Below, piece after piece: positions 1,183 to 47,948 of a stretch of DNA of 64,000 bases. Source of the DNA: Haliotis cracherodii (Eukaryota); assembly GCF_022045235.1 (NCBI RefSeq), contig NW_027266266.1, positions 5,017,848-5,081,847 of the forward strand, given 5' to 3'. The translations under genes and the position numbers were made by a program. The notes beneath the pieces are model-generated. The model was given only the letters and a program-made list of their open reading frames with translations. It had not been told where the DNA came from and searched no databases. The first letter of the stretch is position 1; each line of letters opens with the position of its first letter.

Positions 1183-1665
1183 GCTTCATTTTGGAACAGA
1201 CGTTAACAGCTCCATCGCCACTGTTGCTTGTTGCTTAATGGGAAGGACGTGTGGCCGAAGAATCTCATCCGATTACCCAGAAACTGTACTAGGTCTGTTC
1301 TACCAGTGTAGGAGATGGCAGCCCACATCATCACAGTGTTGCCACTAAATCTGTCCACTTCCTGTAGGCAGTTTGTACATAATGTTCCCCACGTTTATAT
1401 ATCCCAACAAGTGATGTTGCACGTGCATGTCATGTTGGTGTGTTTCAGTGCCAGGCTCTCACTTGGTTGTGTTTTGTGATTTTTCCATCTTTTCATCAAA
1501 TTTCTGTTGTACCTCATTCTTTCCACACAAATCAATCCCAATCCAATCCAAGTGACCAATTCATTGTTGGTATCATGTTTATATGGACACACTCTGTAAG
1601 ATATTTATGATTCTACTATTTGCTCGGGTTTATTTTGCAGAGTACAATATGCTTTAAATAAAATT

Positions 1666-2005
1666 ATGTGTACAACCTATTGCTGTCTACCTCCTATTGC
1701 AGTCTACCATCTACTACTGTCAACCACCTACTGCAGTCTACCACCTACTGCAGTCTATGACCTATTTGCAGTCTACCACCTACTGCAGTCTATGACCTAT
1801 TTGCAGTTTACCATCTACTGCAGTCTACGACCTACAGCAGTCTACCATCTACTGCAGTCTACCATCTACTGCAGTCTACCATCAATTGCAGTCTACCATC
1901 TATTGCTGTCTACCACTTACTGCAGTCTACCATCTACTGCAACCTACCACCTACTGCAGTCTACCATCTATTGCAGTCTACCATCTACTGCTGTCTACCA
2001 CCTTT
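1666..2005. repeat. Tandem repeat, about 18-bp unit (CTACTGCAGTCTACCAT) x about 19
   Basis: Direct visual periodicity. It creates the artefactual ORFs 1666..2022 and 1886..2110. Confidence 0.9.
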
Positions 2006-2352
2006 GCATTCAGTTATACTGATGATATTCAAAAACACAAAAAGAATTCTTTTATTTTACAGAGATCCTTCCGCATGACAGTAAACATTCAGCCGTGCTT
2101 GCCATGGTAATGCCACCAGCTGTTACATGGTGTTTTTCAGGAAATCAACATTCATTCTCTGAACACTTCATCATGTTTATTTATTCTATAAAAATAATAA
2201 TAAAAGTAACATACCAAGTACATGTGACCTTAAACTAATCACCATCAATAAGACTACAATTAATAATATATCAAAACATTTCACATATACAACCAAATGA
2301 GTCAATGTGATTATATTGTCATCTCCACCACAGCAGCCTGCTGGGTAAGTGT

Positions 2353-2868
2353 CCATCTTCCTGAGGCAAGGGAGTTAACTGACAGTAAAAGTCCAGTTTC
2401 CACCCTTACCAAACTAGGCTGGAATTTCTGGGCTCGATCATAGCGCCACCAGTGGCTATTTAGAGTTATATCCCATCTATACCCTTCCTCCTATTGACCA
2501 ATCAGATTCCGCATCACACATCACTTGCATGTGCTTCAAATAATATGGCGGCGCCCAGTGAAGACAATATCTATACTGTAATATAACTGGTCTTACTTCT
2601 TGAAGACCATTAAATTATGTGAGCACCTTGATTAAAAACATGAAAAGATATGGAAAATATCTGTTGATGCTAAGTTGATGGAACACATGCTGGGCAAATC
2701 CTGCAATCGATCGAAATCTGCAAGGCAGTTTACCAACAGGATGTCGACTGGACTATGCATAGACTAATTAGTTCCGCCAGAAAATAACTCCATAATTCCA
2801 GCCTAGTTAGGCAAGGGTGAAAACTGGACTTTTATAGGCAGTTAACTCCCTACCCTCAGGAAGATCGG
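2353..2868. mobile_element. MITE family E (about 520-550 bp, long TIR CCTCGGCAAGGGAGTTAACTGAC...TTTCCACCCTTGCCGAACTAGGCTGGAA)
   Basis: Left end is cctgaggcaagggagttaactgacagtaaaagtccagtttccacccttaccaaactaggctggaatt. Right end is ccagcctagttaggcaagggtgaaaactggacttttataggcagttaactccctaccctcagg. The two ends are perfect inverted complements over about 60 bp. Confidence 0.8.
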
Positions 2869-3939
2869 TAAGTGTCATACTGCTGATAAATCTCCCAACA
2901 GCATACATTGAATGTTGTAGTGCTCAGTATCACGAGGGGAACATGTGGTTTTAAGTGTCCTGTGTTAGCATTGTTTTACACCACAAATGTTTGTAAAAGA
3001 ATTAAAACAAATTGAAAAATGATAGAAAACAGCTGTTCATTTGGGCTAAGTTAACTTGTCCTGAGTCACGTGACTTTCATGGACTCATATTAAATCAATG
3101 TACAGCTTTTTGGCTTCGAAGCGTGAATAAGGGGAATAAGGGATTCTTCCACTCAAATTTTTTTATTTCGCTCCCTGGTGGGATGCATTGTATTTTGTCA
3201 CGATCATATGAACCAATCAGATCTCAACATTTTGACATGGACGGATGATAAGATGGCATATCACTGCTACCTGATGCTGCCACAACACTGTCACTCCTTG
3301 AAATCAAACTTGTATCTTCAGTGGCCACCCAATCCTCAAAACAGATCATCCTACGTGATCACAGTTCCAGCTTCATTGAAATAACAACCTAAAATAACCT
3401 TAAAACTGTGAAAATCTCTGTAATGGATTTATGCAAAGTGTGCACACAGCTTTTTACATTTTTACCTCCATAAATGGAAAATAGTAAGAAGAAGTCAATT
3501 TTTAGTAAGAAATCAACAATAAGAACTTAACAGACTGCTTATGCCACCATGTCAACCTTGTGACAGGTGTCATCATCCATTTAAATGAGTCTCAACCAGA
3601 CAATCCACTGATTGACATCAGCATTGATGTAAGCAATTGGGATGGGATGACATGCATCAACCAAGTCAGCGAGTCTGCTAAAGCATGGGTTGCCAAAGAT
3701 CAATTCTAACCCGGATCTTCACGGGTTCAACCATATTAACCACACGATACACTATCAGTCTACTCATTGGATCACATAATACACACCTCCCCCGCTCCTT
3801 CATGCTTCGAGTCCGCCATCTTGGATGTACCTCAGTATCTGGAAAATACAACACATCGTAAACCAAAGATAAGGTATTCATTCAAGGACTGAAACAATGA
3901 CCGGCAAGAATTAGTGCATCGTGGTATGAGTAATATATT

Positions 3940-4225
3940 TTATTGTCATGATTGGTTGGTTGGTTGATTTGTTGTTAAAAATGCTGCACTCAGCAATATT
4001 CCAGCTATATGACGGCGGTCTGTACATAATCGAGTCTGGACCAGACAATACAGTGATTGATATCATGAGCATCGATCCACGCAATTGGGATCGATGACAT
4101 GTATCAACCAAGTCAGCGAGCCTGACCACCTGATCCCCATAGTCGCCTTTTACGACAAGCATAGTCGTCTTTTACAGCAAGTATGGGTTGCTGAAGACCT
4201 ATTCTACCCCGGAATCTTCACGGGT
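3940..4225 (-). mobile_element. SINE family C
   Basis: ggttggttggttgatttgttgttaaaaatgctgcactcagcaatattccagctatatgacggcggtctgtacataatcgagtctggaccagacaat...gggttgctgaagacctattctaccccggaatcttcacgggtc. Confidence 0.85.
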
Positions 4226-4394
4226 CTTATTGTCATGAAACAAAATGCTAAATCATAAACATAATACTAATAGAACAAGCTATAATATACCAGTCTTGTG
4301 AGTTAAACACAAAGAACATAATTCTCTGTTTATTACCGAAGAAGATGTCTTCACACAGAGACGAATTTTAGTGTTTACTTGCAAAGACAGCTGG

Positions 4395-4640
4395 TCGCAA
4401 CAGCAGAGGAGCGTCAATTTGTCTAATGACGTCAACAATCTTCAGCTATGATGTCGTTTCTAGTGTGATGTCATTCAGACCTCACGTCACAATAAAATTT
4501 GAATGACGTCAACAATGCCGTCTGAATGACGTGATATGACCGAAGAGCACATATGGTTTTTATGAACCCTGATATGTTTGCTATCGTAGGTAATAAGTAT
4601 TGATATGTGACGGAGTCATACTGTAAATCATGAAATAAAT
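4395..4640 (-). repeat. Dispersed repeat family F (TGACGTCA-rich), copy 1
   Basis: Reverse complement of 19655-19905. Carries aatgacgtcaac, atgatgtcgtt, gtgatgtcattc, cacgtcac, aatgacgtcaac and aatgacgtgat. Confidence 0.7.
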
Positions 4641-13082: not shown

Positions 13083-14124
13083 TATGGGTCTGATTGGCAT
13101 GTACCTGGGATACTACAGTAGTAGGGGCACTATTGGGGCTATTTTCACTATTGCAATAGTACCCCACATTATAGCAATAGTACTGCAATAGCAGCAAACA
13201 AACTTAAATGCTTGATAAATATTATATCAATAAACTTAATAGAAATGAATAAAGTATTTCTGACAATCTCAAAGATGGCCATTCTCCTTCCTGTCCCTAC
13301 ACAAACCAAAGGGGAGGTAACTCTAATATGAAGTCGGTGTAGTCCATGCTAACCAACACAGACTCAGGTTCAATATTCACATAATGTATGTATTATTTAT
13401 AACTAATTGCAACTATTACAGCTATTGATAATTATGCATTTTATCGATGACACTATTGGTATTTTTAAATTCCTATTGATATAGTACGATCATAAGGCAA
13501 ACAATTGCCGTATATATTGTGGGAAATGCTGTTTATAAACTGCAGATATACCGTAAACCACAGGATAACGATTGGTGCCGTAACACATGTTATGTTTTTT
13601 GTTCAATTACACTGCTCATATCCATCACGACAAACGTATTTCGTTATCGTCCAGAGATCTAGAATAGCTCAGAACTAGAACATCTATAATTTCTGTGTTG
13701 GACTGTGTTGGATAAATTGTGGACATTCCGCGGTATCATTTTATGAAGATGTGAAGATGACATGGCAGGTAGGTTTTGAAACCAAAGATGTACGCGTGTG
13801 TTGAAAAGTCTTGGAATCGTTTGATAAATATTTATTACCATTAAAACTTATGTCCTTGTTGTCAAATGGTCGACGTGGGTGGGTGTTTACATGACGTTAC
13901 CCGTTTACACAATAACCAATGAAAAATGTGTGTTATCATGACGTCATATTGACTTGTCAGATCACTCATATAAGCTCCGCCCACTAGAGTGCGGTAGTTC
14001 CTACCGCAGATGCCCCTATAAACCCCATTTCACCTCACCTAGCTCACCCTCAACCAGCCTCACATAATGTACATGTGTATGAACTTAAGTATTGGGTAGT
14101 CATGCTTTTGTTGCTTTTGGATAT

Positions 14125-14540: not shown

Positions 14541-16036
14541 AGTATGTACAATTAATAACCATGAGCTGTTGTTACCTAATCCTCATTTTCAGCAGCTGCT
14601 GTTGTATAAGTCATAACTGGAATTATATTACCCGGTACTCTATGTTGATAATGAATACATATCAGACAGCTGGGAAATACAAGAATATGATGGCAGTCAT
14701 AGAGATTATTACACGAATCGAGTATGTGTGTCATACTAATTATATGAAACGAGCGTAAGAATTCTTGTATTTCACACACAATGCCATCTGGATGACATGA
14801 ACAATACAATGGTGTGAGTGAAATGATATTTGCACCAGCGAACATAGGATTTTTATTAACCATGTGGGTAATAAATAGAAGATATTATGTGTATGGTGAA
14901 ATATCATGTTTCTCATGACAGGGGAGAGGCAGTGGGGTAGCCTAGTGGTAGCTAGTGGTGGAAAAACTTTTCCACTTTATCAACTCGAGTTGATAGATCT
15001 ATATTTGATATCAAAAGAAATTTGGGTGAGATCCTCGATAAAATAGTACTTAAAAGATCCGATTTGAATGAAATTGTCTGAAACAATACTACGGGGGCGA
15101 TTTTGTGATTTTAGTAATCATGCACTTAACTTTTTAGAAGATACATCACATCAGTATTTATCATATCCAATGACCTGACTAACCTCTATCACCTCTAGCC
15201 GAGAGTCTGAGTCAAGACAAGCTCCCACAGCCCCTCTGATCTCCATCGACTGTGGTCCTCGGGGACATCCAGCTCCAAGTTGATGAATAGAAAAATACGG
15301 TACTCACCTTTGTGAATCTCTCGGGTCTGCAAACTCCTTCGTAGGAAAGATCAGCAACAGTCAGTGTTGATTAGCGTCAACTCGAGATACAGTCTTCCCG
15401 ACCCGACTACCCCGACGGCGAGTAGATTCTACGTAAACAACGGTAAAGTCGTTAGGCACCTACACTTGGACAGCTGTGGTGTGCAGTTACTTGTCAATTG
15501 CCGTCGATGACACTGCCTCAAAACCTGTCTTGATAGATATGCCAATGACAACGTGCACTTTTAAACTCGATACTTAACCAAACTGCAGTCTGAAGTTTGC
15601 AAACTCACTCGCGTACGGCCTTGACATAGGCCCTTGAATCGTAACCCGGAAGTAAATAAGCGCGAATAAATCTAGACTTGCTTCGCGTCCTAAATAGGTA
15701 TCCTCCTTGACAGTCTGCTCTATTTCTGCATGTGCTAACTGTTGTTCTGTGTAGTGTAACTGATACAAGTGTTGAAGCTGAATGGTAGTCATTTGGGTCA
15801 TATTCTAAACGTGTTCTTTTCTCTCAACAGTTTAAGTAATCTCATATCATCGAATCTCAGTGTATTTGGCTAACATCTATTTAAATTAATGTGATTTTAT
15901 CTTTTTCTCACTTCTGATAAAAAAAAAATAAGATCAAAAGTTATTTTTTCATTCCAATCTTAAATATTCAAATATTCTTTCGTAACATAATAATGATAAT
16001 TCGTTATTCAGAATTAAAAAGGCCCCGTGGCCCAGA

Positions 16037-16325
16037 GTGAGTGAGTGAGTGAGTGAGTTGGGTTCAACGCCACTTTTAACAGTATTCCAGTTGTATCGCG
16101 TTGTGTCAGCTTAATGTGGGAGGAAAGTCCGAAGTGATGCAGGTCTCAGACATTTACCACTTCGGTGAAACCCACGAGCACGGGTATGGTGCTGACAAAC
16201 CTAGAAACATAATCGGGCCGAACCGGGAATCGAACCCACAATCATAGGTTTCTGTCGTGCCCAAGGGACGCAACTCTGCACAGCCAATCGCGGCGCCTTA
16301 GACGACTGGGACACCCGTACCCCCT
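16037..16325 (-). mobile_element. SINE family B (tRNA-derived, GGCCCAGTCGTCTAAGGCGCC... head and (CACT)n tail)
   Basis: gagtgagtgagtgagttgggttcaacgccacttttaacagtattccagttgtatcgcg...gaaacccacgagcacgggtatggtgctgacaaacctagaaacataatcgggccgaaccgggaatcgaacccacaatcataggtttctg...gacgactgggacacccgtaccccc. Confidence 0.85.
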
Positions 16326-16904
16326 GTGGCCCAGAGTACAACACTTAAGACAGATGCACATATATATTATGTGTGGACAACATACATGTAATTAACAATT
16401 AGCTGAATTAGTATTCACCAAAGTAAAGTATATCCAACGACGATGTCCTTTGTATATTTTTTTCACTACTCTCTCTATAAACGGACATATGAACAATTGA
16501 TATCCATATTAAAAAATATTTAAGTTTGAATGTTCTCAAGGTAACTGATCATGAGGAATAATGCCGTCACCGTCACGTTGTTCCTGAATCTATAAACTGC
16601 ACGACATCATCAACAAATGACAATATCTTGACATCAATATATTCATTGACCAAAAACGTCCACGAATGTAATTCTTTTGTAAAATCTTTCTTAATAAAAA
16701 TTATGAAAGAAATATTCTTTCGTAACATGATGTTTATAGGTTCTATTGTACAGGGAGTCTGTAAAAGATGTAGAGTTGCGTCCCTTAGCTGTGCCAGCTC
16801 TGTCATCTTCAAGTTTGTCATCCTCCTCAACACACGCTAGACTTGATTTAAGGTTTAATGTAATATTTCACAAAATGAGGTTTATGGGTTTAGTTCAATT
16901 CAGC

Positions 16905-17130
16905 TTGGGACGTTGGTTGGTTTGTTGTTTTACGCCGCACTAAGCAATATTCCAGCTATATGACGGCAGTCTGTAAATAATCGAGTCTGGACCAGACTAT
17001 CCAGTGACTGATATAATGAGCATCGATCCACGCCGTCGGGGTACGATTACACGCAATCAACCAAGTTACCGAGCTCGACTACCCGATCCATTTAGTAGCT
17101 TCGTACAACTAGCATAGGTTGCTGTGCACC
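16905..17130 (-). mobile_element. SINE family C, 3' truncated
   Basis: ggttggtttgttgttttacgccgcactaagcaatattccagctatatgacggcagtctgtaaataatcgagtctggaccagactatccagtgactgatataatgagcatcgatccacgcc. Confidence 0.75.
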
Positions 17131-17708
17131 AACTAAGCCCGATTCGAGTAACATGTCAATTTCGATATTAGCGGTCGCTGATACACAGCTACAAACCCCT
17201 CATTTAGTAACGTCTGGCGTTGACTCTGCAACGTTTTTCAAAAAAATATTCTGGCCCAGACTCGATTATTGCTGTCAAATAGATGCAATATTGATGAGTG
17301 TGCCGTTAAATAACAGAGAAAGATCCATAAATGTATGACCAACTGTCAAACAAACACAAATGTACGTAACAGAATGACATCATTAAGTTACCCTCAAATA
17401 ATATTATATTTTACGTACGCTTCTGTTCCTTTAGGTAGGCCAAATGTATTTTTAACAATCACCATTCCATCTTTCTCTCAGGTGTACTATCGTGTTCAAA
17501 CTGAGAATGTAACCTCGTGCCCAGTATCACACACAAAGTGTAATGCCTCAATTGTGATAATTTAGTTGGGAAATGTTTCGAGGTTCTGACAGCCTCGATT
17601 ATCCAGTATTATATCTCCAATCTGTTATGATACCTACATGAAAAACTGGATAATCGAATTTGAAGTTCTGAGTGCATGCAGTGGTGTTTGAATCCCTAGT
17701 CCAATGTA

Positions 17709-17940
17709 TCAGTGAGTGAGTGAGTTGTGCTTAACGCCGCTTTTAACAGTATTCCAGGCCAGTTATATCACGGCGTGTCAGCTTAATGTAGCAGGAAAGC
17801 CCGAAGTGATCCAGGTCTTAGACGTTTACCACTTCGGTGAAACCCACGAGCACGGGTATGGTGCTGACAAACCTAGAAATATAATCGGGGCGAACCGGAT
17901 TCGAGCCCTCAATCATAGGTCTCTGGCGTGTCCATCCCAT
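17709..17940 (-). mobile_element. SINE family B
   Basis: gtgagtgagtgagttgtgcttaacgccgcttttaacagtattccagg...ccacttcggtgaaacccacgagcacgggtatggtgctgacaaacctagaaatataatcggggcgaaccggattcgagccctcaatcataggtctctggcgtg. Confidence 0.8.
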
Positions 17941-19568
17941 GTAAAAATGTACTCATTAGAGACAACAAAACCTGCTAGTATACATTTAACTTAAATTTAA
18001 ACAATTTGCAGATATTCGCATATGTTTACAATACAGACAAATATTACGGAAACAAATCCGTACATTGAAACTGAGTAAAATTGAAAATAATAAAATGGTC
18101 TTGATATTAAACGTCGATCGGGTACCCCAAATACCCGTGTAATACTTCAACTGACGTATGAGAAATCCCGATCTGCGATTGTCCTATTATCCTATTTCGC
18201 TAGGATCAAACATAACCGTTTTTATTACCCACGTGGTGAAGATACGGGTGGTAAGATACTAATTCCGTACGTCACACGTGTGTCGTACAAGGTTGAGGTC
18301 GTGAAATGAAGCCACTTGAAACTATCTGGACACATATGTAGACTTACGTTGGATGCCCCGGCTGTGTCATCAGTGTTCCCATTCGAAGCTTATTTTGTGA
18401 CATTGCTTCTGAATGAGCATACACGACTGCACGGCCAGATCACTCAAAGTGAACAGATCCGATACAACTCATTCGAAAAAAGTGTACCTGACATCGTTTT
18501 TATTTTTGCCCAAACATCCCAAATGTGAACGTAATATTCCCTATTGACCTCTCCCGTAAAACGCTGCGAGTAGATCACGGTTGTCTTTTCTTATTCCGAG
18601 TGTGACCTTGGCCTTCGTTCCAAGCTGTCACTGACGTGTAAGCAGACTTGAGTTTGTTCATTTTCACGTCTTCAGTGTAGGGTCATAAGTTAACATAAAC
18701 GTATTCGGCGAGCACTCGGATTTCCCTCTTCCAAAATGGTACAGACAGGATATTAATTCCGATGATAGATCAAGGAAACCGAACTATTTTGATTGCACAG
18801 CCGGGAACCCGTCGATGCGAAAGACCGAGATTCAGATCGCTTTCGCTCGGTCAGATACCATAAATAGTCCACTCGTTTCGTAAAAATGATATCTAACGAG
18901 AATGAGTGTAGTATTTTTTATTTATTACTTGCCCGTGAAGAGATCACCCGTTTAATAAACATACAGCTTTATTACACATTGTGTAATACCAAAACGCGTG
19001 CTTATGTACTCTCGGAACACGTTTCACGAACAAATATTGAAAGCTCTCAACATCCCTTGGCGTATTCAACGACATTGTGTGTGGAGATGATAGATTACTG
19101 GGAGGAGCTTATGTACACTCGATGACCCCAGCAACCTTGTTGCTAGGCTGACGTCACATGGCATTGTTTCACCGATGGATCTTGCAACAAAATTCAAGAA
19201 ATTACGTCATCGGGTATTGTGACGTCATTGTAAACTTTGAGCAGCAAGGCCCCGTTCCACAAGGCGATCGTACTCTAGCGCAACGACAGTCGTTAGTCTA
19301 AGTTAAATTATGTGAGGTGTGATAGCCTTAGCACTACGATAATTTTGTGGGACGAACGCCTGAAATCTAAAGGTGGACCATTGTATGATATTAAATTCAT
19401 ACGTTTCAACTTTTGACGTGTTTGAAGTGTTATTCTGTTAAACTCAATTGGATTATGTCATGCATGGATCGTGTAGGTGTCAGCCTATTTACACTCAACA
19501 GTATAATTCTAAAAACATTATAAATGACAAGTAATAAATAAAATACTAAACTCGCTCTCGTGTAAAAC

Positions 19569-19660
19569 CAATTTTATGAAACTTGTGAATAGTTGTGGTA
19601 TCTGACTCGCTTTCGCTCGTCAGATACCGGAACTATTCACTCGTTTCATAAAATTGGTAT
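19569..19660. repeat. About 39-bp imperfect inverted repeat (hairpin) with a 13-nt loop, directly upstream of family F copy 2
   Basis: Left arm is ccaattttatgaaacttgtgaatagttgtggtatctgac. Loop is tcgctttcgctcg. Right arm is gtcagataccggaactattcactcgtttcataaaattgg. A related half (gatcgctttcgctcggtcagatacc) is at 18820-18860. Confidence 0.7.
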
Positions 19661-19910
19661 TACACGGGAGCTCGTTTAGTATTCTATATTTATTACCCAC
19701 GAGGGCAAACATATCAGGGTTCATAAAAACCATATGTGCCCTTGGGTCATATCACGTCATGAGACAACAGTGTATTATTTCTGTCATCCGGACGGCATTG
19801 TTGACGTCATTCGAAAATTATTGTGACGTAAGTTCGGAATGACGTCACACTAGAACGACGTCATAGCTGAAGATTGCTGACGTCATGCGACAAATTGACG
19901 TTCCGCTGCT
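19655..19910 (+). repeat. Dispersed repeat family F (TGACGTCA-rich), copy 2
   Basis: ttattacccacgagggcaaacatatcagggttcataaaaaccatatgtgccc... followed by ttgacgtcat, gtgacgtaag, aatgacgtcacac, aacgacgtcatag, gctgacgtcatg and attgacgttcc within about 110 bp. Confidence 0.7.
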
Positions 19911-19974
19911 GTTACGACTTGCTGTACTTGCTGTTCGGTGTTGGTGATACAATGGTGTGCTCAACGTACCACAT

Positions 19975-20228
19975 GACCCGGGAAGAACCGGGATAGAATA
20001 GGTCTTCAGCAACCCATGCTTGTCGTAAAAGGCGACTATGCTTGTCCTAAGAGGCGACTAACAGGATCGGGTGGTCAGGCTCGCTGACTTTGTTGATGCA
20101 TGTCATCGATCCCGATTTTGTCGGTCGATGCTCATGATATTAATCACTGGATTGTCTGGTCCAGACTCGATTATGTAGCTGGAATATATCTGAGTGCGTA
20201 CAACAAACCAACCAACCAAATCAACGTA
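19975..20228 (+). mobile_element. SINE family C
   Basis: cccgggaagaaccgggatagaataggtcttcagcaacccatgcttgtcgtaaaaggcgactatgcttgtcctaagaggcgactaacaggatcgggtggtcaggctcgctgactttgttgatgcatgtc...caaccaaccaaatc. Confidence 0.8.
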
Positions 20229-20404
20229 CCATATATTATATAGAGGACATTATATGACACTGCTGTCTCGTGACGTGATATGACCCTAGAGCGCATATGA
20301 TTTTTATGAACCTCGATATGTTTTCCCTCGTAGGTAGTAAAACATAGTATGGTCACACCACTTTAGTTGGTATTTTCTTACCAGAAACAATCTAAAATTC
20401 ATAC

Positions 20405-20545
20405 AATTGAGTGAGTATGGTTTTACGCCGCTGTTAGCAGTAGTCCAGCAACATCTCGGCGGGAGTGCCAGAAATTGGGTTCACACATTGTATCCAGGCT
20501 GGAAAGCCGAGGCTAGAGAGGTCTGAAGCTACCCTATCGACCTAA
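20405..20545 (-). mobile_element. SINE family A, diverged copy
   Basis: gagtgagtatggttttacgccgctgttagcagtagtccagcaacatctcggcgggagtgccagaaattgggttcacacattg. Confidence 0.5.
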
Positions 20546-20999
20546 TACAAACAAGGGCTAAAAAAGTAGCTCTGATCAAATAAATTCATAGTAATGTAGA
20601 TGATAAGGCCTACTAGTATATGATTAACAAATTATGATAACTGTGCATTAGGGTCACAGAATGTCCCTCTCTAATGGGGAATGGAAATGACGCGACATGT
20701 CATCTGTAAATGCGATCTGTGAGTTTGTTTGTATATTGTAGTTTCACTAACACGCAGGGCCGGTCGTCTCCATAACACTGTACAAATATGTGGTATTTCG
20801 GCATACCACACGGACCAACATCACACGGACCAGTGTCAATAATGGTGGCCTACATGAATATCTCCACCTGATGATTGACAAGGTGTCAATGAATCAACGA
20901 ACATAATGCCATATCGCATTTTTCTCAACAATTGAAGTACTGTGACGTCATATGGCTTCAACTGACTTCAAATTCAAACGTGCGAATGTGAGTAATATA

Positions 21000-21215
21000 C
21001 TAGTTTATTACCCATAGGGTTAGAAATAACCGAGGTAATAAAAATCGTATGTGCACTAGTGCAAATATCACTTCACGCGCCCCGGTGTATTGTCATCAAT
21101 CAGGACGGCATTGTTGAAGTCACTCGAATTTCCTTGTGACGTAAGGTCGTAATGACGTCACACTAGCAACGACGTCATAGCTGATGATTGTTGACGTCAT
21201 TCGACAATTGTGGTT
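21000..21215 (+). repeat. Dispersed repeat family F, copy 3
   Basis: tttattacccatagggttagaaataaccgaggtaataaaaatcgtatgtgcac... followed by gtgacgtaagg, aatgacgtcacac, aacgacgtcatag and ttgacgtcattcg. Confidence 0.65.
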
Positions 21216-24200
21216 TTCAAAGACGGTGGTCATGATCGGTGCATTTTTCTAAAGCAGAGCTGAACAGGATTAAGAAATAATGGGTGATAAAGAAATTATT
21301 ATTATTATTATTGGGTTTCAAACCAAAAAGTCACAGACACGATATGTCAACCATTATTAATTTTACTTTAAACAACCAAATCAACATGTTATCATGGTAG
21401 ATTATCTTTTTTACAATATGGGGGGAAAATCCGAAGTGGTGCAGGTCTTTGAAGTTTACGGCTGTCGTGAAACCTCAAGCACGGGTATGGCGTATATATA
21501 ATCAATCATGCATATAATCGTATTTCAATTGCGTAGACCAATGCTCATGATGTCAGTGACTGGAACGTCTGGAATATTGCCGAGTGCGGCGTTAAACAAG
21601 AAGCAAACTAACAAACAAAATAATCATAATCAGAGCGATGCTAGTTGATGGTATTTTTTTTAGTTAGCTCCAATTTGAATCGATTTTTAGTTAAATTACG
21701 GCGTGTAAGTTTCATGTGGGAGGAAGTCCCCTCGTGATGCGGCTCTTAGACTTTAACTACTGTGGTGAAACCAATGTAGCAATGTGTTGAATATAGTTTG
21801 AGGAGTGGTATAATTATGTATAGGAAACAAGGTCGTCTTAAAATCAAGATTGTCGCCATTTGAACGTTGCCTATAGCCTCATTGACAGTCTTGCATGTGG
21901 TTTCACTAAAAATTTCACCATAACAGAACTGTTTTGGTGTTTTTTTTAAAAATGGCTTAAAATTAGATTATGGCACCCGTTTTTGTCAAATTATACATCC
22001 CCACCGCATTTAAACGCGCACAAATATCACACACATTTTTATGAGTCTACAACCTGCTCCTGTGGATGCCATTATGAGGATCCTCCACATTACTTCTTTT
22101 CATGTCGTAACTACTGCAATCTTCGTAACAATAAGTACTACTACATAAAAGGATATGACTTGATTCAGTATTATTCAGAAATGCTGCAACATCTACTGAT
22201 ACAAACCTTGCTATTGTAAAATCTGTTTATTTATTAAGCATATGTGCATGGTTGTACCGGTTAGGTTATGTACTGATATATGTATGTGTGTATTTATGTG
22301 TACTTGTATATTCACATCATGACATTTACAATAGTAGGTACAGTTAATCTAAACTTATTTTTATGTGCAGTAACTCTAAATAGTTGTTAAATGTCCTTTG
22401 TAGGGAGAGGTGTTTACATAGGCTTTGTATGTTCACCGACCCCATTCCTTTTTCTTGAAAATAAATATTGTTTAAATCACATTTGGACAGACAGTTTTTA
22501 AAAAACCGTTCACGAATCAGCCGACTAAAAAATGAAATGTGAAAAAAATAATGATTTTCTTATTCAGCCGACCAGGAATAAGTAAAAATAATTTATTTAC
22601 TGTCGCTTCTCAATATAAATGAAGTATTTGACATATTATGATTAAAACCTGTTGAAAAGCTATCTCAAAAACTTCAAAACACACCGAGTTGTGACGAAAA
22701 AAGCATGATGAACCCTATTGCTGCCTGGTTCCAAATAGTTCAACCCGTGGTGATTCAGGGTGCTTATATTTGAAATCTAAAGAACTGACCTCAAAGACGA
22801 TTTAATGGTCATAATATGTAACCTGGCTGACATCGTACCGTCACACACCAGTGGTGTGGAACGTTGTTAATGCTATCAACCTCTAGTCGGATTCGAACGC
22901 CGTTGCCTGCGGCGTAAAACAACGGTAAGTCCCATACTTTACCTTCTTTATCGACAATGTCAGAACGACCAGAATATAACCAACTCGGTAACCCCCAAGA
23001 ATAAACAGATTCTAATAAAGCGCTATATTTACTATATCGTAAACATATGTGTTTTACAATGCAGTAGGTTTTATAAAGAATGTTCATATTAATCAGTTTA
23101 ACTAATATTCGATCACTAAAACAAGTCCCAACAAGCCGTATTTACTTCAATCTCGAGGTTAACCACGCATGGAATGTAAAAGCGGAAGTGATGTCACAGC
23201 TAATTTTAGATAATATTCAGGCTCCTGTGATTTGATTGGTTGATCAACCTCGCCGGTCTTGCACCACACATCACAATACACAAGGTAGGTGCCGGACCGT
23301 AGGTCCAATTTTGCTGAATATTCGATATTAATAGTATTCGTACTTTCGTTTCACTGCATGATATCGGTTCTGTAAGTACCCCAAGTCACGTGCCACTTGA
23401 TAAGAGGTGATGACAGTTCTGGATAAACATGTAACATTATCAAAACCTACCCGGATACTTAATTCTATCAAGCGGGTCAACACGTCTTCCTCCTTTGTTC
23501 TACCCGTTTGTTATGATCAAAACATGTTAATTCGGGTACACGATACGCACAGTACTACATTCAAAGGCCACATTTGATACAATATGAAACCGTAATTAAT
23601 CTTGTGTGAATCCACTTGATTGCTGATTACTATAAAGAAGGCAAGTTACCGTCGATTAAACGCTCCTAGTGGACACGCCCACTTTGAACATGCTTGTATC
23701 GTGAGAACAGTTCATCAGACATTTCAAGTGTGAACCAACATTAGCCAGATCGAAACCTCCAAATGACCAGTTGCTTGAAAAAGATGTCTGTCACTAAAGC
23801 ATGTGAAAACGCAAATAAACTTCCGTGTTTAGAGAGTTTGTTAAGCGGGGCGTGACGAATAGATCGACCCTTGATCGCCTCTAGTCAGTAGAAGTAAATG
23901 TAGGTTGTTGCTAGGCATTGCTTGGCCTCTCGATCGATTTAGACTGTCAGTTTGGACCATATGCAATTATCCATGCATAACATCATCAATTGTGAATGCA
24001 TCTTTCATATCACGTGCACTGCGTCATGGGTTGCGCGAAGATCACTGAATCACAATTTAATGTGTATTTATTATTTAGACATAACTTTTCACTGTAGAAT
24101 AGACTGTAGGAGATGGTAGTTTGCCTTTTCTCGCAAAAATGTGTTTCTTTTTCCTTATTTCCCGAAACAATGGGAACACGTATTACAACTAACCCTCCAA

Positions 24201-24854
24201 AGGAAATGCTTATTTCATTATTTCATGATATGTGATTTTCTTTCCTTGGGATAAGTTTACCCCAGAATGGTAATTTGTATTTAACTATTTCCAGTATTTT
24301 GTTCATTAGTAGAAACGGGTTGCATGCAATAGCCCATGAGCTTTTAATGCTTTGAATTCGTTTACATGCTATAACTTGTGGACGAGGATTAGTGTTATGA
24401 CAAAGCGCCTCAAGGACAACTTATACCAGGAAATACCTTTTAACAATAGAGGTGAACTGTAATGTGTGCCATGTTTGCCCGTAATGGTATATGGTATTCC
24501 CCAGCGTTTATTTCCGAAAGGTGTCGTGTGTAACAGGACGTTCAATACTGACGTACCGTAAATACAAACAACTATATGATTACAATGAAGCTTTGGAGAT
24601 TGCAACAGACGGCCTTGAGGTTATCCGCATTGATATTAGTTGTATGGAATACACTACGCATGCGCCGACTCGTAGAAACATGAAGTAAACATTGTGAAAT
24701 ACTGTACTAAGTGGTGGTTGAAATCGCTGACGCGGCTGATATTGGGCGTTGTCAGGTACATACAATGTGATATCCTCTCTCTGCGGTTCAGTGGATACGG
24801 GTCCCATATCTTGTCACCTGCGTCATTTCTTGACTCATACTGCTAGCGCAGCTA

Positions 24855-25029
24855 AATAGACGTCATATAAACCCCGGACTTCTCGTTCCAGCGCAGCCAG
24901 AAGTGAGTTAGTCGTGAAGGAGGGAGAATCTTCTTAACTGCGTGTGAGCTAAAGCATGTGAAAGTTCGTCTGTTCACATCTTTTCTTTTTCTTGTTGCAG
25001 TTAACGGCAGGGACAAGTTATTATATTAG
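24855..25029 (+). promoter_or_regulatory. MVP: Putative MVP core promoter and non-coding first exon: GACGTCA half-CRE plus TATAAA at about 24858-24871, donor GTAAGT at about 25030
   Basis: agacgtcatataaacc lies about 1.2 kb upstream of the ATG-containing exon. That exon begins with a good acceptor (tgtatgttcag, about 26006), which implies an upstream 5'UTR exon. The stretch cttgttgcagTTAACGGCAGGGACAAGTTATTATATTAG|gtaagt is a plausible 5'UTR exon end. Confidence 0.25.
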
Positions 25030-25659
25030 GTAAGTGTGTTTTCGTAATTTTTATGATGTAACCATCTGGTATTGTAACACTTGATTCTAACAGTGAGTGA
25101 GTGAATTTTGTTCAACAGCACTACTAATGGACACTATTCCAGATATATCACGTCGAGGATGTACAGGGATGTATTAACCTTGGACATAGTTGTCATCCTG
25201 TAGCCTACAGCGTGTGGTTATGCTAATTAGATATATGCTAAGCGCACCAGAACACGGTAACTAACAGTATAAGCTTGTCTTCATGTAATTTGTCGAAATG
25301 AATTCGAAAAACATTATCCCAGGTTTCTCTAGAATATATTTGGATTAATGATTTTATTGATTTTATCACATACTTATTTTAAAGTTTCCATTGGTAGTTG
25401 AGATATAAACATGATGTCAATGGAATTATGTGGCATAACAAAATCGTTAAGTGTGCAATACATAAGTGTTTTTGATATATCAACTCACTCAAAATGGCAG
25501 GTTCATGTGCTCAATATGACATGTTAATTTCATTTGATCAATTAACAGCTTCATTTTCTCAATTAGATCTCTTTCATATATTTTAAGAAATTAATATCAT
25601 ATGTGTTCAAGAACAAGTGTAGACCGTGAGTTCAATCCAATTGTCCACATTCTCTTTGA

Positions 25660-25945
25660 TCTTTGAGGGGGCACGGGGAGCCCAGTCGTCTAAGGCGCCG
25701 CGATTCGCTGTGCAGAGTTGCGTCCCTTGGGCACGCCAGAAACCTATGATTGTTGGTTCGAATCGAATCGCCCCGATTATGTTTCTAGGTTTGTCAGCAT
25801 CATACCCGTGCTCGTGGGTTTCACCGAAGTGGTAAACGTCTGAGACCTGCATTGCTTCAGGCTTTCCTCCCACATTAAGCTGACACTGTAATACTGTTAA
25901 AAGCGGCGTTAAACCCAACTCACTCACTCACTCACTCACTTTGAT
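25660..25945 (+). mobile_element. SINE family B, about 60 bp upstream of the MVP start-codon exon acceptor
   Basis: gggggcacggggagcccagtcgtctaaggcgccgcgattcgctgtgcagagttgcgtcccttgggcacgccagaaacctatgattgttggttcgaatcg...ctgttaaaagcggcgttaaacccaactcactcactcactcactcac. Confidence 0.85.
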
Positions 25946-26033
25946 CTTTGATCTTTGATCTGATCTATGCTTGCAGTATGTGTAAGCTGTATGTGTTGTA
26001 TGTTCAGCTGAGGTTACCCAATAGACACACACG

Positions 26034-26394: not shown

Positions 26395-27055
26395 TAACAC
26401 AAAAGAATAACAGAACAAAAGAATAATAGAACAAAAGAATAATAGAACAAATGAATAATAGAACCAATGAATAATAGAACAAAAGAATAATAGAACAAAA
26501 GAATAATAGAACAAAAGAATAATAGAACTAATGAATAATAGAACAAAAGAATAATAGAACAAAAGAATAATAGAACAAAAGAATAATAGAACCAATGAAT
26601 AATAGAACAAAAGAATAATAGAACAAAAGAATAATAGAACAAAAGAATAATAGAACCAATGAATAATAGAACAAAAGAATAATAGAACAAAAGAATAATA
26701 GAACCAATGAATAATAGAACAAAAGAATAATAGAACCAATGAATAATAGAACAAAAGAATAATAGAACAAAAGAATAATAGAACCAATGAATAATAGAAC
26801 AAAAGAATAATAGAACAAAAGAATAATAGAACCAATGAATAATAGAACAAAAGAATAATAGAACAAAAGAATAATAGAACAAAAGAATAATAGAACAAAA
26901 GAATAATAGAACCAATGAATAATAGAACAAAAGAATAATAGAACCAATGAATAATAGAACAAAAGAATAATAGAACAAAAGAATAATAGAACAAAAGAAT
27001 AATAGAACCAATGAATAATAGAACAAAAGAATAATAGAACAAAAGAATAACAGAA
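26395..27055. repeat. Minisatellite in MVP intron 1: 16-bp unit AATAATAGAACAAAAG, with variant ...GAACCAATG, x about 41
   Basis: Direct periodicity. It generates the long artefactual minus-strand ORFs 26218..27140. Confidence 0.95.
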
Positions 27056-27385
27056 CTACAGAAACATGAAAGAATCGGGTGTTCTTCAACTTCTTTAGCA
27101 TTCCATGATAACTAAGAAACAGATATTGGCAAAAGAGCATATTATAGAAAACTGTTAGTAACTTATTTTATTTTTTGTGAAATCATAGAAAAGCTGAATT
27201 ATACAAAATAATAAAGTTGGTACATCTTCAGTTGGTGATGGTTCCTATTTCAAGATAGAAAATGGCTGGAAAGTCAAAGAGGAGGAGACTTATGTGAGAA
27301 GTTAACACCTTCATATTTTGCGAAGTGAAAATATAAGAGTTAAAATAAGTATTGGGCCACACTTTACTCTAAATGCACATTCCAG

Positions 27386-32094: not shown

Positions 32095-33425
32095 ACACGT
32101 TCCGTAACGTAACTCACTCCGTACCATCACACATCATCACATCACTCACATACACCATTACACATCACCATAACATCACTCACACCACCATCACACATCA
32201 CCGTAACATGACTAACACCACATCACATGTCATCACATCACTCACACAACATCACACATCACCGTAACATCTCTCACACCCTCCATCACACATCACCGTA
32301 ACATCACTCACACCACATCACACATCACCGTAACATCTCTCACACCCTCCATCACACATCACCGTAACATCACTCACACCACCATCACACATCACCGTAA
32401 CATCACTCACACCCACCATCACACATCACCGTAACATCACTCACACCCACCATCACACATCACCGTAACATCTCTCACACCCACCATCACACATCACCGT
32501 AACATCGCTCACACCCACCATCACACATCACCGTAACATCACTCACACCCACCATCACACATCACCGTAACATCACTCACACCACCATCACACATCACCG
32601 TAACATCACTCACACCCACCATCACACATCACCGTAACATCTCTCACACCCACCATCACACATCACCGTAACATCGCTCACATCCACCATCACACATCAC
32701 CGTAACATCACTCACACCCACCATCACACATCACCGTAACATCACTCACACCCACCATCACACATCACCGTAACATCTCTCACACCCACCATCACACATC
32801 ACCGTAACATCACTCACACCACCATCACACATCACCGTAACATCACTCACACCCACCATCACACATCACCGTAACATCACTCACACCCACCATCACACAT
32901 CACCGTAACATCACTCACACCCACCATCACACATCACCGTAACATCACTCACACCACCATCACACATCACCGTAACATCACTCACACCCACCATCACACA
33001 TCACCGTAACATCACTCACACCCACCATCACACATCACCGTAACATCACTCACACCCACCATCACACATCACCGTAACATCACTCACACCACCATCACAC
33101 AACACCATAACATCGCTCACACCCATCACAGAACACCATAACATCACTCACACCCATCACAGAACACCATAACTTACCTCACATCCACCATCACACAGCA
33201 CCATAACATCGCTCACACCAACCATCACACATCATCACATCACTCACACCACCATCACACATCATCACATCACTCACACCCTCCATCACACATCACCGTA
33301 ACATCACTCACACCACCATCACACATCATCACATCACTCACACCCTCCATCACACATCACCGTAACATCACTCACACCACCATCACACATCATCACATCA
33401 CTCACACCCTCCATCACACATAATC
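32095..33425. repeat. Minisatellite in MVP intron 6: about 41-bp unit (CATCACACATCACCGTAACATCACTCACACCCAC) x about 32, beginning about 10 nt after the exon-6 donor
   Basis: Direct periodicity over 1.3 kb. Each unit contains CCGTAACA, which echoes the exon-6 donor context aagGTAATAcacgttccGTAACGTAAC. Confidence 0.95.
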
Positions 33426-36865: not shown

Positions 36866-37400
36866 CCAATCGAGATATGTGATATAGTGGTTTTACTCTC
36901 CTAGTAGTTATATATAGATATGTGATATAGAGGTTATACTCTTCTAGTAGTTATATATAGATATGTGATATAGTGGTTTTACTCTCCTTGTAGTTATATG
37001 TAGATATGTGATATAGAGGTTATATACTCTCCTTGTAGTTATATATAGATATGTGATATAGAGGTTATACTCTTCTAGTAGTTATATATATATATATGTG
37101 ATATAGTGGTTCTACTCTCCTAGTAGTTATATATAGATATGTGATATAGAGGTTATACTCTTCTAGTAGTTATATATAGATATGTGATATAGTGGTTTTA
37201 CTCTCCTTGTAGTTATATGTAGATATGTGATATAGAGGTTATATACTCTCCTTGTAGTTATATATAGATATGTGATATAGAGGTTATACTCTCCTAGTAG
37301 TTATATGTAGATATGTGATATAGAGGTTATATACTGTCCTTGTAGTTATATATAGATATGTGATATAGAGGTAATACTCTCCTTGTAGTTTTTATATATA
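36866..37400. repeat. Tandem repeat in MVP intron 11: about 43-bp unit (ATATGTGATATAGAGGTTATACTCTTCTAGTAGTTATATATAG) x about 12
   Basis: Direct periodicity, beginning about 27 nt after the exon-11 donor. Confidence 0.9.
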
Positions 37401-37606
37401 TATAGATATATCCACATTTATTACAACCCTTTGTAAGCAACATCCCCATGCTCGTGGATGTAAAAGATCTCAAGTCCTGTATCATTTTTGACACTGTACA
37501 CTTTTTTTGTTATAACCATTGTTCATTACAAGAATATGTACAACTTATACACAACAAATGGCTGGGACAAAAAAGCAGTTCGTTATATACGCAAGTTCGT
37601 TATAAG

Positions 37607-47689: not shown

Positions 47690-47948
47690 ATATTATATAT
47701 ATCAACACTTGTGGATGAAAGTTTGATATCAAATATATCAACACTCGTGAATGAAAGTTTGATATCAAATATATCAACATTCATGGATGAAAGTTTGATA
47801 TGAAAAATATCAACACTTGTGGATGAAAGTTTGATATGAAATATATCAACACTCGTGGATGAAAGTTTGATATGAAATATATCAACACTCGTGGATGAAA
47901 GTTTGATATGAAATATATCAACACTCGTGGATGAAAGTTTCATATCAA
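47690..47948. repeat. 36-bp tandem repeat x7 (ATATCAACACTCGTGGATGAAAGTTTGATATGAAAT)
   Basis: Direct periodicity. Source of ORFs 47468..47803 and 47584..47961. Confidence 0.9.

What the first reader, a model, noticed from the sequence alone, without database searches (positions are those of the whole stretch)
19135..21215. Dispersed repeat family carrying dense clusters of TGACGTCA (CRE/ATF-type) palindromes
At 19801-19910 six TGACGTCA, TGACGTAA or CGACGTCA motifs occur in about 110 bp. Three are perfect 8-bp palindromes (ttGACGTCAt, aaTGACGTCAca, gcTGACGTCAtg). The same module recurs in reverse orientation at 4395-4520 and again at 21110-21200. Isolated TGACGTCA sites are also at about 19141, 19231 and 20944. 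Such elements would spread ready-made bZIP (CREB/ATF) binding-site clusters around the genome. Alternatively the palindromes reflect a transposase or nicking recognition site. Family-F copies at 19655 and 4395 (reverse) each lie next to a SINE-C copy, which suggests a composite unit.
Basis: partly seen in the sequence, partly recalled or inferred. Interest (0 to 1): 0.5.

Follow-up and report, generated by a model that had tools for sequence, protein, structure and literature searches.

The report
Mobile-element family carrying CRE-like site arrays
A short, old, non-coding mobile-element family in this animal genome carries a built-in array of six cAMP-response-element-like (TGACGTCA-type) sites, a real but already-known kind of thing: repeats that spread ready-made transcription-factor sites.

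Summary
TGACGTCA occurs 12 times in the window against about 1.1 expected. Six CRE-like cores lie within 102 bp at 19802-19903, and no simulation gave more than 4 in 120 bp.

The array is an ancestral part of a dispersed repeat family. I found five copies of its terminus:
- c1, 19689-20341, with 90-nt inverted ends
- c2, 4378-4597, on the minus strand
- c3, 21004-21212, in the same orientation as c1, not reversed
- c4, 14766-14875, which has the terminus only

The three "isolated" sites at 19149, 19220 and 20943 sit in weak relics of the same array.

The "composite with SINE-C" idea fails. The two SINEs have different target-site duplications at different positions, so they are separate later insertions.

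Site survival follows the local CpG regime. c1 and c3 lie in a CpG-rich 15-26 kb domain and keep 19 of 20 consensus CpGs. c2 lies in CpG-depleted DNA and keeps 5 of 10.

Best reading: a MITE-like non-autonomous element whose internal array is a portable bZIP (CREB/ATF) regulatory module. Binding sites for the element's own transposase, or a neutral duplication, remain live rivals. No copies were found outside the window and no autonomous partner was found.

This is a new member of a known kind, of modest interest.

The parts
19689..19778 (+). c1 left terminal repeat. It begins TTTATTACCCACGAGGG and contains the half-CRE TCACGTCA at 19752.
   Evidence: I1: 90-nt arms, 86% complementary to 20252-20341; the same terminus is present in c2, c3 and c4; flanks beyond it are unrelated between copies, so this is a true boundary.
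19786..19931 (+). c1 array of six CRE-like sites at 19802, 19824, 19840, 19856, 19878 and 19896, with centre-to-centre spacing of 16-22 bp. Local CpG observed/expected is 1.94.
   Evidence: All 10 consensus CpGs are retained.
19932..19974 (+). c1 internal tail, not shared with c2 or c3. It continues at 20235-20251 after the SINE.
19975..20220 (+). SINE-C inserted into c1. Its target-site duplications are 19961-19974 and 20221-20234 (TCAACGTACCAYAT).
   Evidence: (D18).
20252..20341 (-). c1 right terminal repeat, an inverted copy of family positions 1-89.
   Evidence: I1; 87% over 85 nt; E = 1.3e-24.
4378..4597 (-). c2: terminus plus array. Sites: TGACGTCA 4504, TGACGTGA 4482, TGACATCA 4466, CGACATCA 4449, TGACGTCA 4427, TGACGCTC 4409. 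It has a 27-nt deletion in the terminal repeat and no right end was found.
   Evidence: Five of 10 consensus CpGs are lost, three of them as CpG to CpA.
3952..4226 (-). SINE-C downstream of c2, with its own duplications TCATGACAATAA at 4227-4238 and 3940-3951.
21004..21212 (+). c3, a copy of the second subfamily: terminus plus array. Sites: TGAAGTCA 21115, TGACGTAA 21137, TGACGTCA 21153, CGACGTCA 21170, TGACGTCA 21192. It is cut off after the fifth site.
   Evidence: (D1, D2, D5).
14766..14875 (-). c4: terminal fragment of the c3-type subfamily. Homology ends at GGCATTGT, just before the array would begin.
   Evidence: E = 2.9e-20.
19134..19240 (.). Probable degraded array relic holding the "isolated" TGACGTCA sites at 19149 and 19220.
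   Evidence: I6 and I7: 23 nt, 83% complementary to the third/fourth-site region of c3 and c1; z about 3. The evidence is weak.
20878..21000 (-). Probable inverted, degraded array relic abutting c3. It holds TGACGTCA at 20943 and shares c3's variant TTGAAGTCA.
   Evidence: local alignment to c3 positions 81-208, z = 5.0, reached by 0 of 200 shuffles., I23.

Best explanation
**What it is.** This is an old, non-coding mobile-element family in an animal genome. One complete-looking copy, c1, is about 390 bp once a later SINE insertion is removed. It has 90-nt imperfect terminal inverted repeats starting TTAYTACCYACGAGGG and is flanked by TA. It therefore looks like a MITE, a deletion derivative of a cut-and-paste DNA transposon. 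The other copies are one-ended fragments.

**The array.** Just inside the left terminal repeat, the family's ancestor already carried about 110 bp holding six CRE-type sites 16-22 bp apart: three or four perfect TGACGTCA sites plus TGACGTAA, CGACGTCA and TGACGTTC.

**How I think it works (inferred, not shown).** The array is a cis-regulatory module read by host bZIP dimers of the CREB/ATF type. It was originally the promoter or enhancer next to the end of the parent element. Non-autonomous copies carry it along, so each insertion drops a dense CRE cluster into new DNA.

**Which copies could still work.** Every site has a central CpG, and CREB binding is blocked by CpG methylation. Only copies in unmethylated DNA would stay intact and usable. 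Here that means c1 and c3, in the CpG-rich 15-26 kb domain upstream of the major vault protein gene. Copies in methylated DNA, such as c2, decay by deamination.
For: **Shown.**
- Motif excess and clustering are far beyond chance.
- Five family termini share a sharp boundary, and the flanks beyond it are unrelated.
- c1 has 90-nt inverted arms at 86-87% identity.
- The array is present, in register, in all three copies long enough to include it. The copies are only 77-79% identical to each other, so the array is ancestral.
- Motif positions differ from the consensus at 4 of 120 positions, against 17 of 201 in the spacers.
- The repeated element is the 8-bp palindrome itself. The fourth and sixth sites share only the core with the others.
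- The array lies at one end only, which is where a transposon's own promoter would lie.
- Local CpG observed/expected is 1.9, 1.6 and 1.3 in the three arrays, against 0.62 for the whole window.
- CpG retention is 10/10 and 9/10 in the CpG-rich domain, and 5/10 in the depleted domain.

**Precedents.**
- Harbinger-derived MITEs hold 49% of all TGACGTCA sites in peach (PMC5950925).
- A CRE in mouse IAP LTRs is bound by CREB1 only when unmethylated and gives about half of LTR activity (PMC9729108).
Against: - There is no binding, expression or accessibility data.
- Only three array-bearing copies are available. The motif-versus-spacer difference is not significant on its own.
- c1 and c3 keep their CpGs in a domain where all CpGs are kept, so the data do not demonstrate selection on the sites.
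- The first and fifth sites share an 18-nt stretch (ATTGTTGACGTCATTCGA). The third site carries TGACGTCATTCCGA in inverted orientation. This points to internal duplication, or to a longer asymmetric recognition site of the kind transposases use.
- Only c1 has two ends. Three of four left ends lack a partner.
- The target-site duplication is no better than TA, or TTA/TAA with one mismatch.
- No transposase is linked to the family.
- No copy was found outside the window.
Confidence: 0.45

Rival explanations
1. The array is a set of subterminal binding sites for the element's own transposase or an accessory DNA-binding protein, as in Ac/Ds, En/Spm or Harbinger elements. On this reading the match to the host CRE consensus is incidental.
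For: - The position is right: immediately inside a terminal inverted repeat, with a related half-site (ATCACGTCAYGAGACA) inside both terminal repeats of c1.
- An extended, asymmetric motif is shared by the first and fifth sites over 18 nt, by the third site in inverted orientation, and partly by the terminal-repeat site (D9).
- Mixed orientations and irregular spacing of 16-22 bp are typical of subterminal repeats (established knowledge of Ac and En/Spm).
Against: - The array is at one end only in the single two-ended copy.
- The fourth and sixth sites share nothing beyond the 8-bp core.
- The core is a perfect 8-bp palindrome identical to the canonical bZIP site. That is unusual for known transposase sites.
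- In the c3/c4 subfamily the terminal-repeat half-site is not conserved (CACTTCAC, CATTTCAC).
- No transposase has been identified.
Confidence: 0.25
2. The array has no sequence-specific function. It is a leftover of internal duplication of a roughly 38-bp unit in the ancestor. It looks well preserved only in copies that lie in unmethylated DNA.
For: - The first-plus-second site unit resembles the fifth-plus-sixth site unit, giving a 77-bp direct repeat.
- CpG retention tracks the domain and not the motif. c2 lost 5 of 10 CpGs, including two motif cores.
- The motif-versus-spacer difference is small, at 3.3% against 8.5% with n = 3.
Against: - The third and fourth sites have unrelated flanks yet keep the core.
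- Six cores plus one in the terminal repeat all match the same canonical site.
- A CpG-centred palindrome repeated seven times in an ancestor from a CpG-depleted genome is not expected without some constraint in the master copy.
Confidence: 0.2
3. Structural rival: the family is not a terminal-inverted-repeat transposon. It is a retroposon whose copies share the 3' end (...GGGTAATAAA on the opposite strand) and are truncated at variable 5' points. On this reading c1's "right terminal repeat" is a second, independent short copy.
For: - All five termini are the same end. Their lengths are about 90, 110, 209, at least 220 and at least 243 nt.
- No right ends were found for c2, c3 or c4.
- c1's right arm carries ancestral states shared with the c3/c4 subfamily and not with c1's left arm.
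- Extra fragmentary relics in both orientations lie near c1 and c3.
Against: - No target-site duplications flank the individual fragments.
- There is no A-rich or microsatellite tail, whereas the window's SINEs end in (AACC)n or (ACTC)n.
- There is no reverse-transcriptase signal next to c2 on either strand.
- By my rough estimate, two outward-facing copies 60 bp apart would arise by chance with a probability of only a few per cent.
Confidence: 0.25
4. One reading: family F and SINE-C move together as one unit.
For: A SINE-C in the same relative orientation lies 286 bp inside c1, about 360 bp from the c2 terminus, and about 300 bp beyond c3.
Against: - The two full-length SINEs have different duplications (14 bp TCAACGTACCAYAT against 12 bp TCATGACAATAA). 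They are at different positions and sit in sequence that the two copies do not share.
- The piece near c3 is a partial SINE 300 bp away.
- The window holds about 18 SINE-C copies.
Confidence: 0.02

Closest known systems
Harbinger-derived MITEs of peach and Prunus mume that carry TGACGTCA (bZIP60 motif); Morata et al. 2018, PMC5950925
   Same: Both are short non-autonomous elements with inverted ends whose copies carry the very same 8-bp palindrome. In both cases the elements account for a large share of that motif: 49% in peach, and 7 certain plus 3 probable of 12 in this window. The proposed consequence is also the same, that bZIP sites are spread near genes.
   Different: - That case is in plants and this one is in an animal.
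- Those elements are assigned to PIF/Harbinger and have a known autonomous partner. Here the superfamily is unresolved: TA, or TTA/TAA with a mismatch.
- Here there is a dense array of six sites in about 100 bp. The paper, as read here, reports motif counts per genome, not such arrays.
- Binding was not shown there either.
CRE in mouse IAP LTRs, bound by CREB1 only when unmethylated; Kaluscha et al. 2022, PMC9729108. That paper also points to CRE motifs in HERVK, HTLV-1 and HIV LTRs.
   Same: In both, a mobile element uses the canonical TGACGTCA as part of its own promoter. The central CpG makes activity methylation-sensitive. This matches the pattern here of intact sites in CpG-rich DNA and decayed sites in CpG-depleted DNA.
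   Different: - That is an LTR retrotransposon and this is not.
- There it is one CRE per LTR, against six or seven here.
- Function is demonstrated experimentally there and only inferred here.
Subterminal repeat arrays of cut-and-paste transposons, such as the Ac/Ds AAACGG hexamers and the En/Spm 12-bp TNPA sites (own knowledge, not checked here)
   Same: Both have multiple short motifs in both orientations, irregularly spaced, directly inside the terminal inverted repeats.
   Different: - Those arrays are present at both ends and are asymmetric motifs specific to the element's protein.
- Here the array is at one end, and the core is a perfect palindrome identical to a host transcription-factor site.
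Viral terminal promoters with several ATF/CREB sites, such as the adenovirus E4 promoter next to the ITR and the HTLV-1 21-bp repeats (own knowledge; HTLV-1 is mentioned in PMC9729108)
   Same: Both have several CRE or ATF sites clustered next to the terminal repeat of a mobile or viral genome, driving its genes through host bZIP factors.
   Different: Those are viruses with coding capacity. This element shows no coding capacity and no viral features.

Membership tests
MITE / non-autonomous TIR DNA transposon | Terminal inverted repeats at both ends | tested here: inconclusive
   c1 has 90-nt arms at 86-87% identity. c2, c3 and c4 have only one end, and no partner was found by Smith-Waterman alignment or nhmmer.
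MITE / non-autonomous TIR DNA transposon | Target-site duplication of fixed length flanking the element | tested here: inconclusive
   c1 is flanked by TA on both sides, or by TTA/TAA with one mismatch. No 4-9 bp duplication is present (reading). TA carries too little information to decide.
MITE / non-autonomous TIR DNA transposon | Short, non-coding and multi-copy, with a sharp common boundary | tested here: met
   c1 is about 390 bp without the SINE and has no ORF. Five termini share the boundary TTTATTACC, and the flanks are unrelated (z below 1 for family-flank pairs).
MITE / non-autonomous TIR DNA transposon | Related autonomous element encoding a transposase with the same ends | tested here: not met
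   - There are no Pfam hits on either strand of 1-4600, next to c2.
- The only candidate is a roughly 50-aa Tc1-like relic at 1358-1237, 3.2 kb away.
- The rest of the genome is not available.
Tc1/mariner superfamily | TA target-site duplication and a DD(E/D) transposase | tested here: inconclusive
   TA flanks all five termini when read inward (T-TA-YTACC). The terminal repeat start does not resemble known Tc1, mariner or pogo ends (own knowledge). No linked transposase was found.
PIF/Harbinger superfamily | 3-bp TWA target-site duplication | tested here: inconclusive
   c1 has TTA on the left and TAA on the right. Both are TWA but they are not identical. There is only one two-ended copy.
Non-LTR retroposon (SINE or truncated LINE) | Common 3' end with variable 5' truncation | tested here: met
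   Five copies of about 90 to at least 243 nt are all anchored at the same end.
Non-LTR retroposon (SINE or truncated LINE) | 3' A-rich or microsatellite tail, and variable-length duplications around each copy | tested here: not met
   Copies end at ...GGTAATAA(A) with no tail. No duplications were found around c3, c4 or c1's right arm (reading).
CRE / ATF-CREB binding-site cluster | Match to the palindromic consensus TGACGTCA or the half-site TGACG/CGTCA | tested here: met
   c1 has three perfect sites and three one- or two-mismatch sites, plus a half-site in the terminal repeat. The family consensus has three perfect sites, plus TGACGTAA and CGACGTCA.
CRE / ATF-CREB binding-site cluster | Occupancy by bZIP factors and cAMP- or ATF-dependent activity | not testable with these tools
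   This needs ChIP or DAP-seq, ATAC-seq or reporter assays in the source organism.
   The insertion points differ, and each SINE has its own different duplication.

The most novel reading that the evidence does not exclude
The family has seeded many unmethylated intergenic regions of this animal's genome with six-site CRE arrays. On this reading these arrays act as cAMP/ATF-responsive enhancers, so a transposon burst wired new genes into the CREB network. Here the candidates would be the major vault protein gene on one side and the argininosuccinate lyase gene on the other side of the 15-26 kb domain. A stranger variant is that the element's own mobilising protein recognises the host CRE palindrome, which would couple transposition to bZIP-site occupancy.
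Probability: 0.1. Interest if true: 0.6.

Novelty: new member of a known kind. Interest (0 to 1): 0.3.

Why it matters
If the arrays are bound, this would be an animal counterpart of the plant MITE case, with a transposon family distributing dense, methylation-sensitive CREB/ATF site clusters. It would give a concrete, testable source of lineage-specific cAMP-responsive enhancers. It would also give a natural experiment on how CpG-centred sites survive in unmethylated DNA compared with methylated DNA. If the arrays are not bound, this is one more decaying repeat family. Its main practical use would then be in annotation, because it explains 7 to 10 of the 12 TGACGTCA sites in this window.

Tried and rejected
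**Searches for copies outside the window.**
1. One metagenome scan and one viral scan with GACGGCATTGTTGANGTCA gave 120 or more hits and 8 hits. BLAST of the whole element against all 128 loci found only chance matches of 26 nt or less.
2. Two more specific patterns found nothing in genome contigs or viral contigs.
3. A six-frame translation of the family consensus against the 5.8-billion-protein set gave no hit at E of 10 or below.

**Identifying the organism.**

4. Major vault protein exon peptides reached at most 79% identity. The best related locus (L129) shares only major vault protein exons and no repeats. The taxon remains undetermined.
5. A literature search for SINE sequence strings found nothing useful.

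**Looking for a coding partner.**

6. Pfam on all six frames of 1-4600 found no transposase or reverse transcriptase.
7. A Tc1-like relic at 1358-1237 is too short and too far away to link to c2.

**Looking for missing ends and longer elements.**

8. Right ends for c2, c3 and c4 were not found.
9. I suspected by eye that the family extends outward into the neighbouring hairpin element. Flank-versus-flank alignments are at shuffle level, so I rejected this.

**Structure and RNA.**

10. A conserved RNA or DNA fold of the terminal repeat was rejected. Only c1 folds better than shuffles (z = -3.2) and the other copies do not.
11. The array's DNA hairpin gives z = -2.0 and was not pursued.
12. Rfam gave nothing at gathering score. 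Only sub-threshold miRNA-hairpin matches fell on the neighbouring hairpin element.

**Other structural kinds.**

13. Helitron, LTR and piggyBac/Kolobok (TTAA) readings were rejected on terminal sequence and flanks.
Full report
**Context**

The window is animal nuclear DNA.
- It carries the N-terminal coding exon of argininosuccinate lyase (ASL) on the minus strand at about 250-140. This matches residues 6-40 of human ASL at E = 1e-13.
- It carries exons of the major vault protein (MVP) gene on the plus strand from about 26 kb to 40 kb.
- CpG is depleted overall, with observed/expected 0.62 and TpG/CpA at 1.31. The depletion is mosaic. The 15-26 kb stretch has CpG observed/expected of 0.8-1.4, and most of the rest is at 0.2-0.7. 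This is the usual invertebrate pattern of methylated gene bodies and unmethylated intergenic DNA, which I infer and did not measure.
- The organism could not be identified. The closest MVP fragments reach 79% identity.

Yes.
- TGACGTCA occurs 12 times against 1.12 expected from shuffles, and 0 of 100 shuffles reach 12. Markov models of orders 1-3 give 1.0-1.5.
- At 19802-19903 there are six sites in 102 bp: TGACGTCA, TGACGTAA, TGACGTCA, CGACGTCA, TGACGTCA and TGACGTTC. A seventh site, TCACGTCA, lies at 19752.
- Six GACGT/ACGTC cores within 120 bp were never reached in 300 Markov simulations, where the maximum was 4.
- The same module lies at 4409-4511 on the minus strand and at 21115-21199 on the plus strand.
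- The 21.1 kb copy is in the same orientation as the 19.8 kb copy.
- The "isolated" sites are at 19149, 19220 and 20943.

**Anatomy of the family**

BLAST and a profile search of the window find five copies of one terminus.

| Copy | Coordinates | Strand |
|---|---|---|
| c1 left | 19689-19974 | + |
| c1 right | 20341-20252 | - |
| c2 | 4597-4378 | - |
| c3 | 21004-21212 | + |
| c4 | 14875-14766 | - |

- All five begin TTTAYTACC. Beyond that point the flanks are unrelated to each other, at shuffle level. This is therefore a true element boundary.
- c1 is the only two-ended copy. Its 90-nt arms are 86-87% complementary (I1).
- Between the arms lie the array, a 43-nt tail, a SINE-C with its own 14-bp duplication (19961-19974 and 20221-20234), and 17 nt more. 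Without the SINE the element is about 390 bp.
- It is flanked by TA on both sides, or by TTA and TAA, which differ at one base. No longer duplication is present.
- There are two subfamilies: c1 with c2, and c3 with c4. They are 72-79% identical to each other.
- c2, c3 and c4 have no detectable second end.
- c4 stops at GGCATTGT, just before the array would begin.

**Is the array part of the element?**

Yes, within the limits of three copies.
- c1, c2 and c3 are only 77-79% identical overall but carry the sites in register.
- The consensus is TGACGTCA, 22 nt on TGACGTAA, 16 nt on TGACGTCA, 17 nt on CGACGTCA, 22 nt on TGACGTCA, and about 18 nt on TGACGTTC.
- Motif positions differ from the consensus at 4 of 120 positions, against 17 of 201 spacer positions. 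This is suggestive but not significant.
- The losses are TGACATCA and CGACATCA in c2, both CpG to CpA, along with TGACGTGA in c2 and TGAAGTCA in c3.

**The three "isolated" sites**

They are probably older fragments of the same array.
- 19134-19156 is 83% complementary to the third/fourth-site stretch of c3, including c3's subfamily-specific CTAGCAAC.
- 19215-19237 is 83% complementary to the third-site stretch of c1 (I6 and I7).
- 20878-21000 aligns in inverted orientation to c3 positions 81-208, at z = 5.0 with 0 of 200 shuffles reaching the score. It shares c3's private variant TTGAAGTCA.
- In the 15-26 kb domain, outside the clear copies, 3 TGACGTCA are seen against 0.22-0.32 expected. Elsewhere it is 2 against 0.7.
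- So 7 certain and 3 probable of the 12 sites come from this family.

**The SINE "composite"**

This reading does not hold.
- The SINE in c1 (19975-20220) is flanked by TCAACGTACCAYAT.
- The SINE after c2 (4226-3952) is flanked by TCATGACAATAA, at 4227-4238 and 3940-3951.
- It lies about 360 bp from the terminus, in sequence that c1 lacks.
- The piece near c3 is a partial SINE 300 bp away.
- These are separate retroposition events.
- That SINEs landed next to three copies is mildly unexpected. It could reflect open chromatin or a target preference, but with n = 3 I do not build on it.

**CpG context**

- The arrays are very CpG-rich, with observed/expected of 1.94, 1.59 and 1.26.
- c1 and c3 sit in the CpG-rich 15-26 kb domain and keep 10/10 and 9/10 consensus CpGs.
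- c2 sits in depleted DNA, where the neighbourhood is at 0.55-0.63, and keeps 5/10.
- Site survival is therefore explained by where the copy landed. It does not by itself show selection on the sites.
- It also means that only c1 and c3 could still be bound by a methylation-sensitive factor.

**What it most likely is and does**

*Structure.* I read it as a MITE-like non-autonomous DNA element, at about 0.5-0.6. The main rival, at about 0.25, is a retroposon sharing one end.
- For the retroposon reading: all five termini are the same end, and the copies have graded lengths.
- Against it: there is no tail, no duplications around single fragments, no reverse-transcriptase signal, and c1 has an outward-facing inverted pair.

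*Function.* The repeated unit is the canonical 8-bp bZIP palindrome. It occurs six or seven times, at one end only, just inside the terminal repeat, which is where a transposon's own promoter lies. I therefore favour a host-read CRE array that non-autonomous copies carry along, at about 0.45.

Precedents exist for both halves of this idea.
- Harbinger MITEs hold half of all TGACGTCA sites in peach (PMC5950925).
- The IAP LTR uses a CRE that CREB1 binds only when unmethylated (PMC9729108).

*The transposase-site rival,* at about 0.25, is supported by two things.
- An extended asymmetric similarity: the first and fifth sites share ATTGTTGACGTCATTCGA, and the third site carries TGACGTCATTCCGA in inverted orientation.
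- A related half-site inside both terminal repeats.

*The neutral-duplication rival,* at about 0.2, is supported by the 77-bp internal repeat and by the CpG-domain effect.

Nothing available here can separate these readings.

**What led nowhere**

- Public-collection scans gave only chance hits or none.
- A six-frame translation of the consensus found no protein.
- The related MVP locus shares exons only.
It lies on the same strand as c2 but 3.2 kb away, and nothing connects the two.
- Folds of the terminal repeat are not conserved between copies.
- Rfam has nothing at threshold.

**Verdict**

It is a transposable-element family with a built-in array of CRE-like sites. That is a new member of a known kind, since mobile elements carrying clusters of transcription-factor sites are already described, including this very motif. 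The composite-unit idea is wrong. The mechanism is inferred, not shown. Interest is modest unless genome-wide and chromatin data show that the arrays are used.

Noticed in passing
window 19528-19698 (half copy at 18837-18931): A hairpin (foldback-type) mini-element with arms of about 75 nt, 82-87% complementary, around a 12-nt loop. Its right end overlaps the first ~10 nt (ATTTATTAC) of family copy c1. It gives only sub-threshold Rfam matches to MITE-like miRNA precursors (best 50.8 bits against a gathering score of 119). A related 26-nt piece lies inside c4 at 14728-14753.
   Followed up: partly
window 15001-26000 against the rest: There is a sharp CpG mosaic. CpG observed/expected is 0.8-1.4 across 15-26 kb and mostly 0.2-0.7 on both sides. 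This suggests an unmethylated intergenic domain between methylated gene bodies, with the major vault protein gene to the right. Smaller CpG-rich kilobases lie at 4-5, 9-10, 32-33 (a tandem array), 41-42 and 63-64 kb.
   Followed up: partly
window 13870-14030 (+): A promoter-like stretch with TGACGTTA at 13893, CCAAT at about 13916, TGACGTCA at 13939, CCGCCC at about 13978 and CTATAAA at about 14016, all within 150 bp. It is preceded at 13832 by TTTATTACC, the family's terminal motif. I found no gene or repeat assignment for it.
   Followed up: no
window 1358-1237 (-): A short relic of a Tc1-like transposase (VDRFSGNTVMMWAAISYTGRTDLVQFLGN ... DEILRPHVLPI). Pfam is silent on it. It lies on the same strand as c2 but 3.2 kb away, so any link is unproven.
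   Followed up: partly
window ~250-140 (-): The N-terminal coding exon of argininosuccinate lyase ([34 protein letters not shown]), matching residues 6-40 of human ASL at E = 1e-13. The gene runs off the left end of the window. The CpG-depleted 0.3-15 kb upstream of this exon may be a 5' intron or another gene.
   Followed up: partly
window 9950: A lone TGACGTCA in a locally CpG-rich kilobase (observed/expected 1.03). It shows no similarity to the family or to any other repeat in the window.
   Followed up: partly
window 26399-27056, 32102-33421, 36873-37410, 47660-47952, 52380-52856, 57182-57803, 59839-60174, 61613-62675: Large tandem arrays with periods of 16, 34, 43, 36, 17/35, 22, 95 and 76 bp lie inside or near the major vault protein gene region. 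The 76-mer array accounts for the window's most over-represented 8-bp palindrome, GGGTACCC.
   Followed up: no
window 14672-14766 (-), inside c4: A segment of about 95 nt bounded by the 13-nt inverted repeats GAAATACAAGAAT / ATTCTTGTATTTC sits exactly where c4's homology to the family ends. It is possibly a small element inserted into c4.
   Followed up: no
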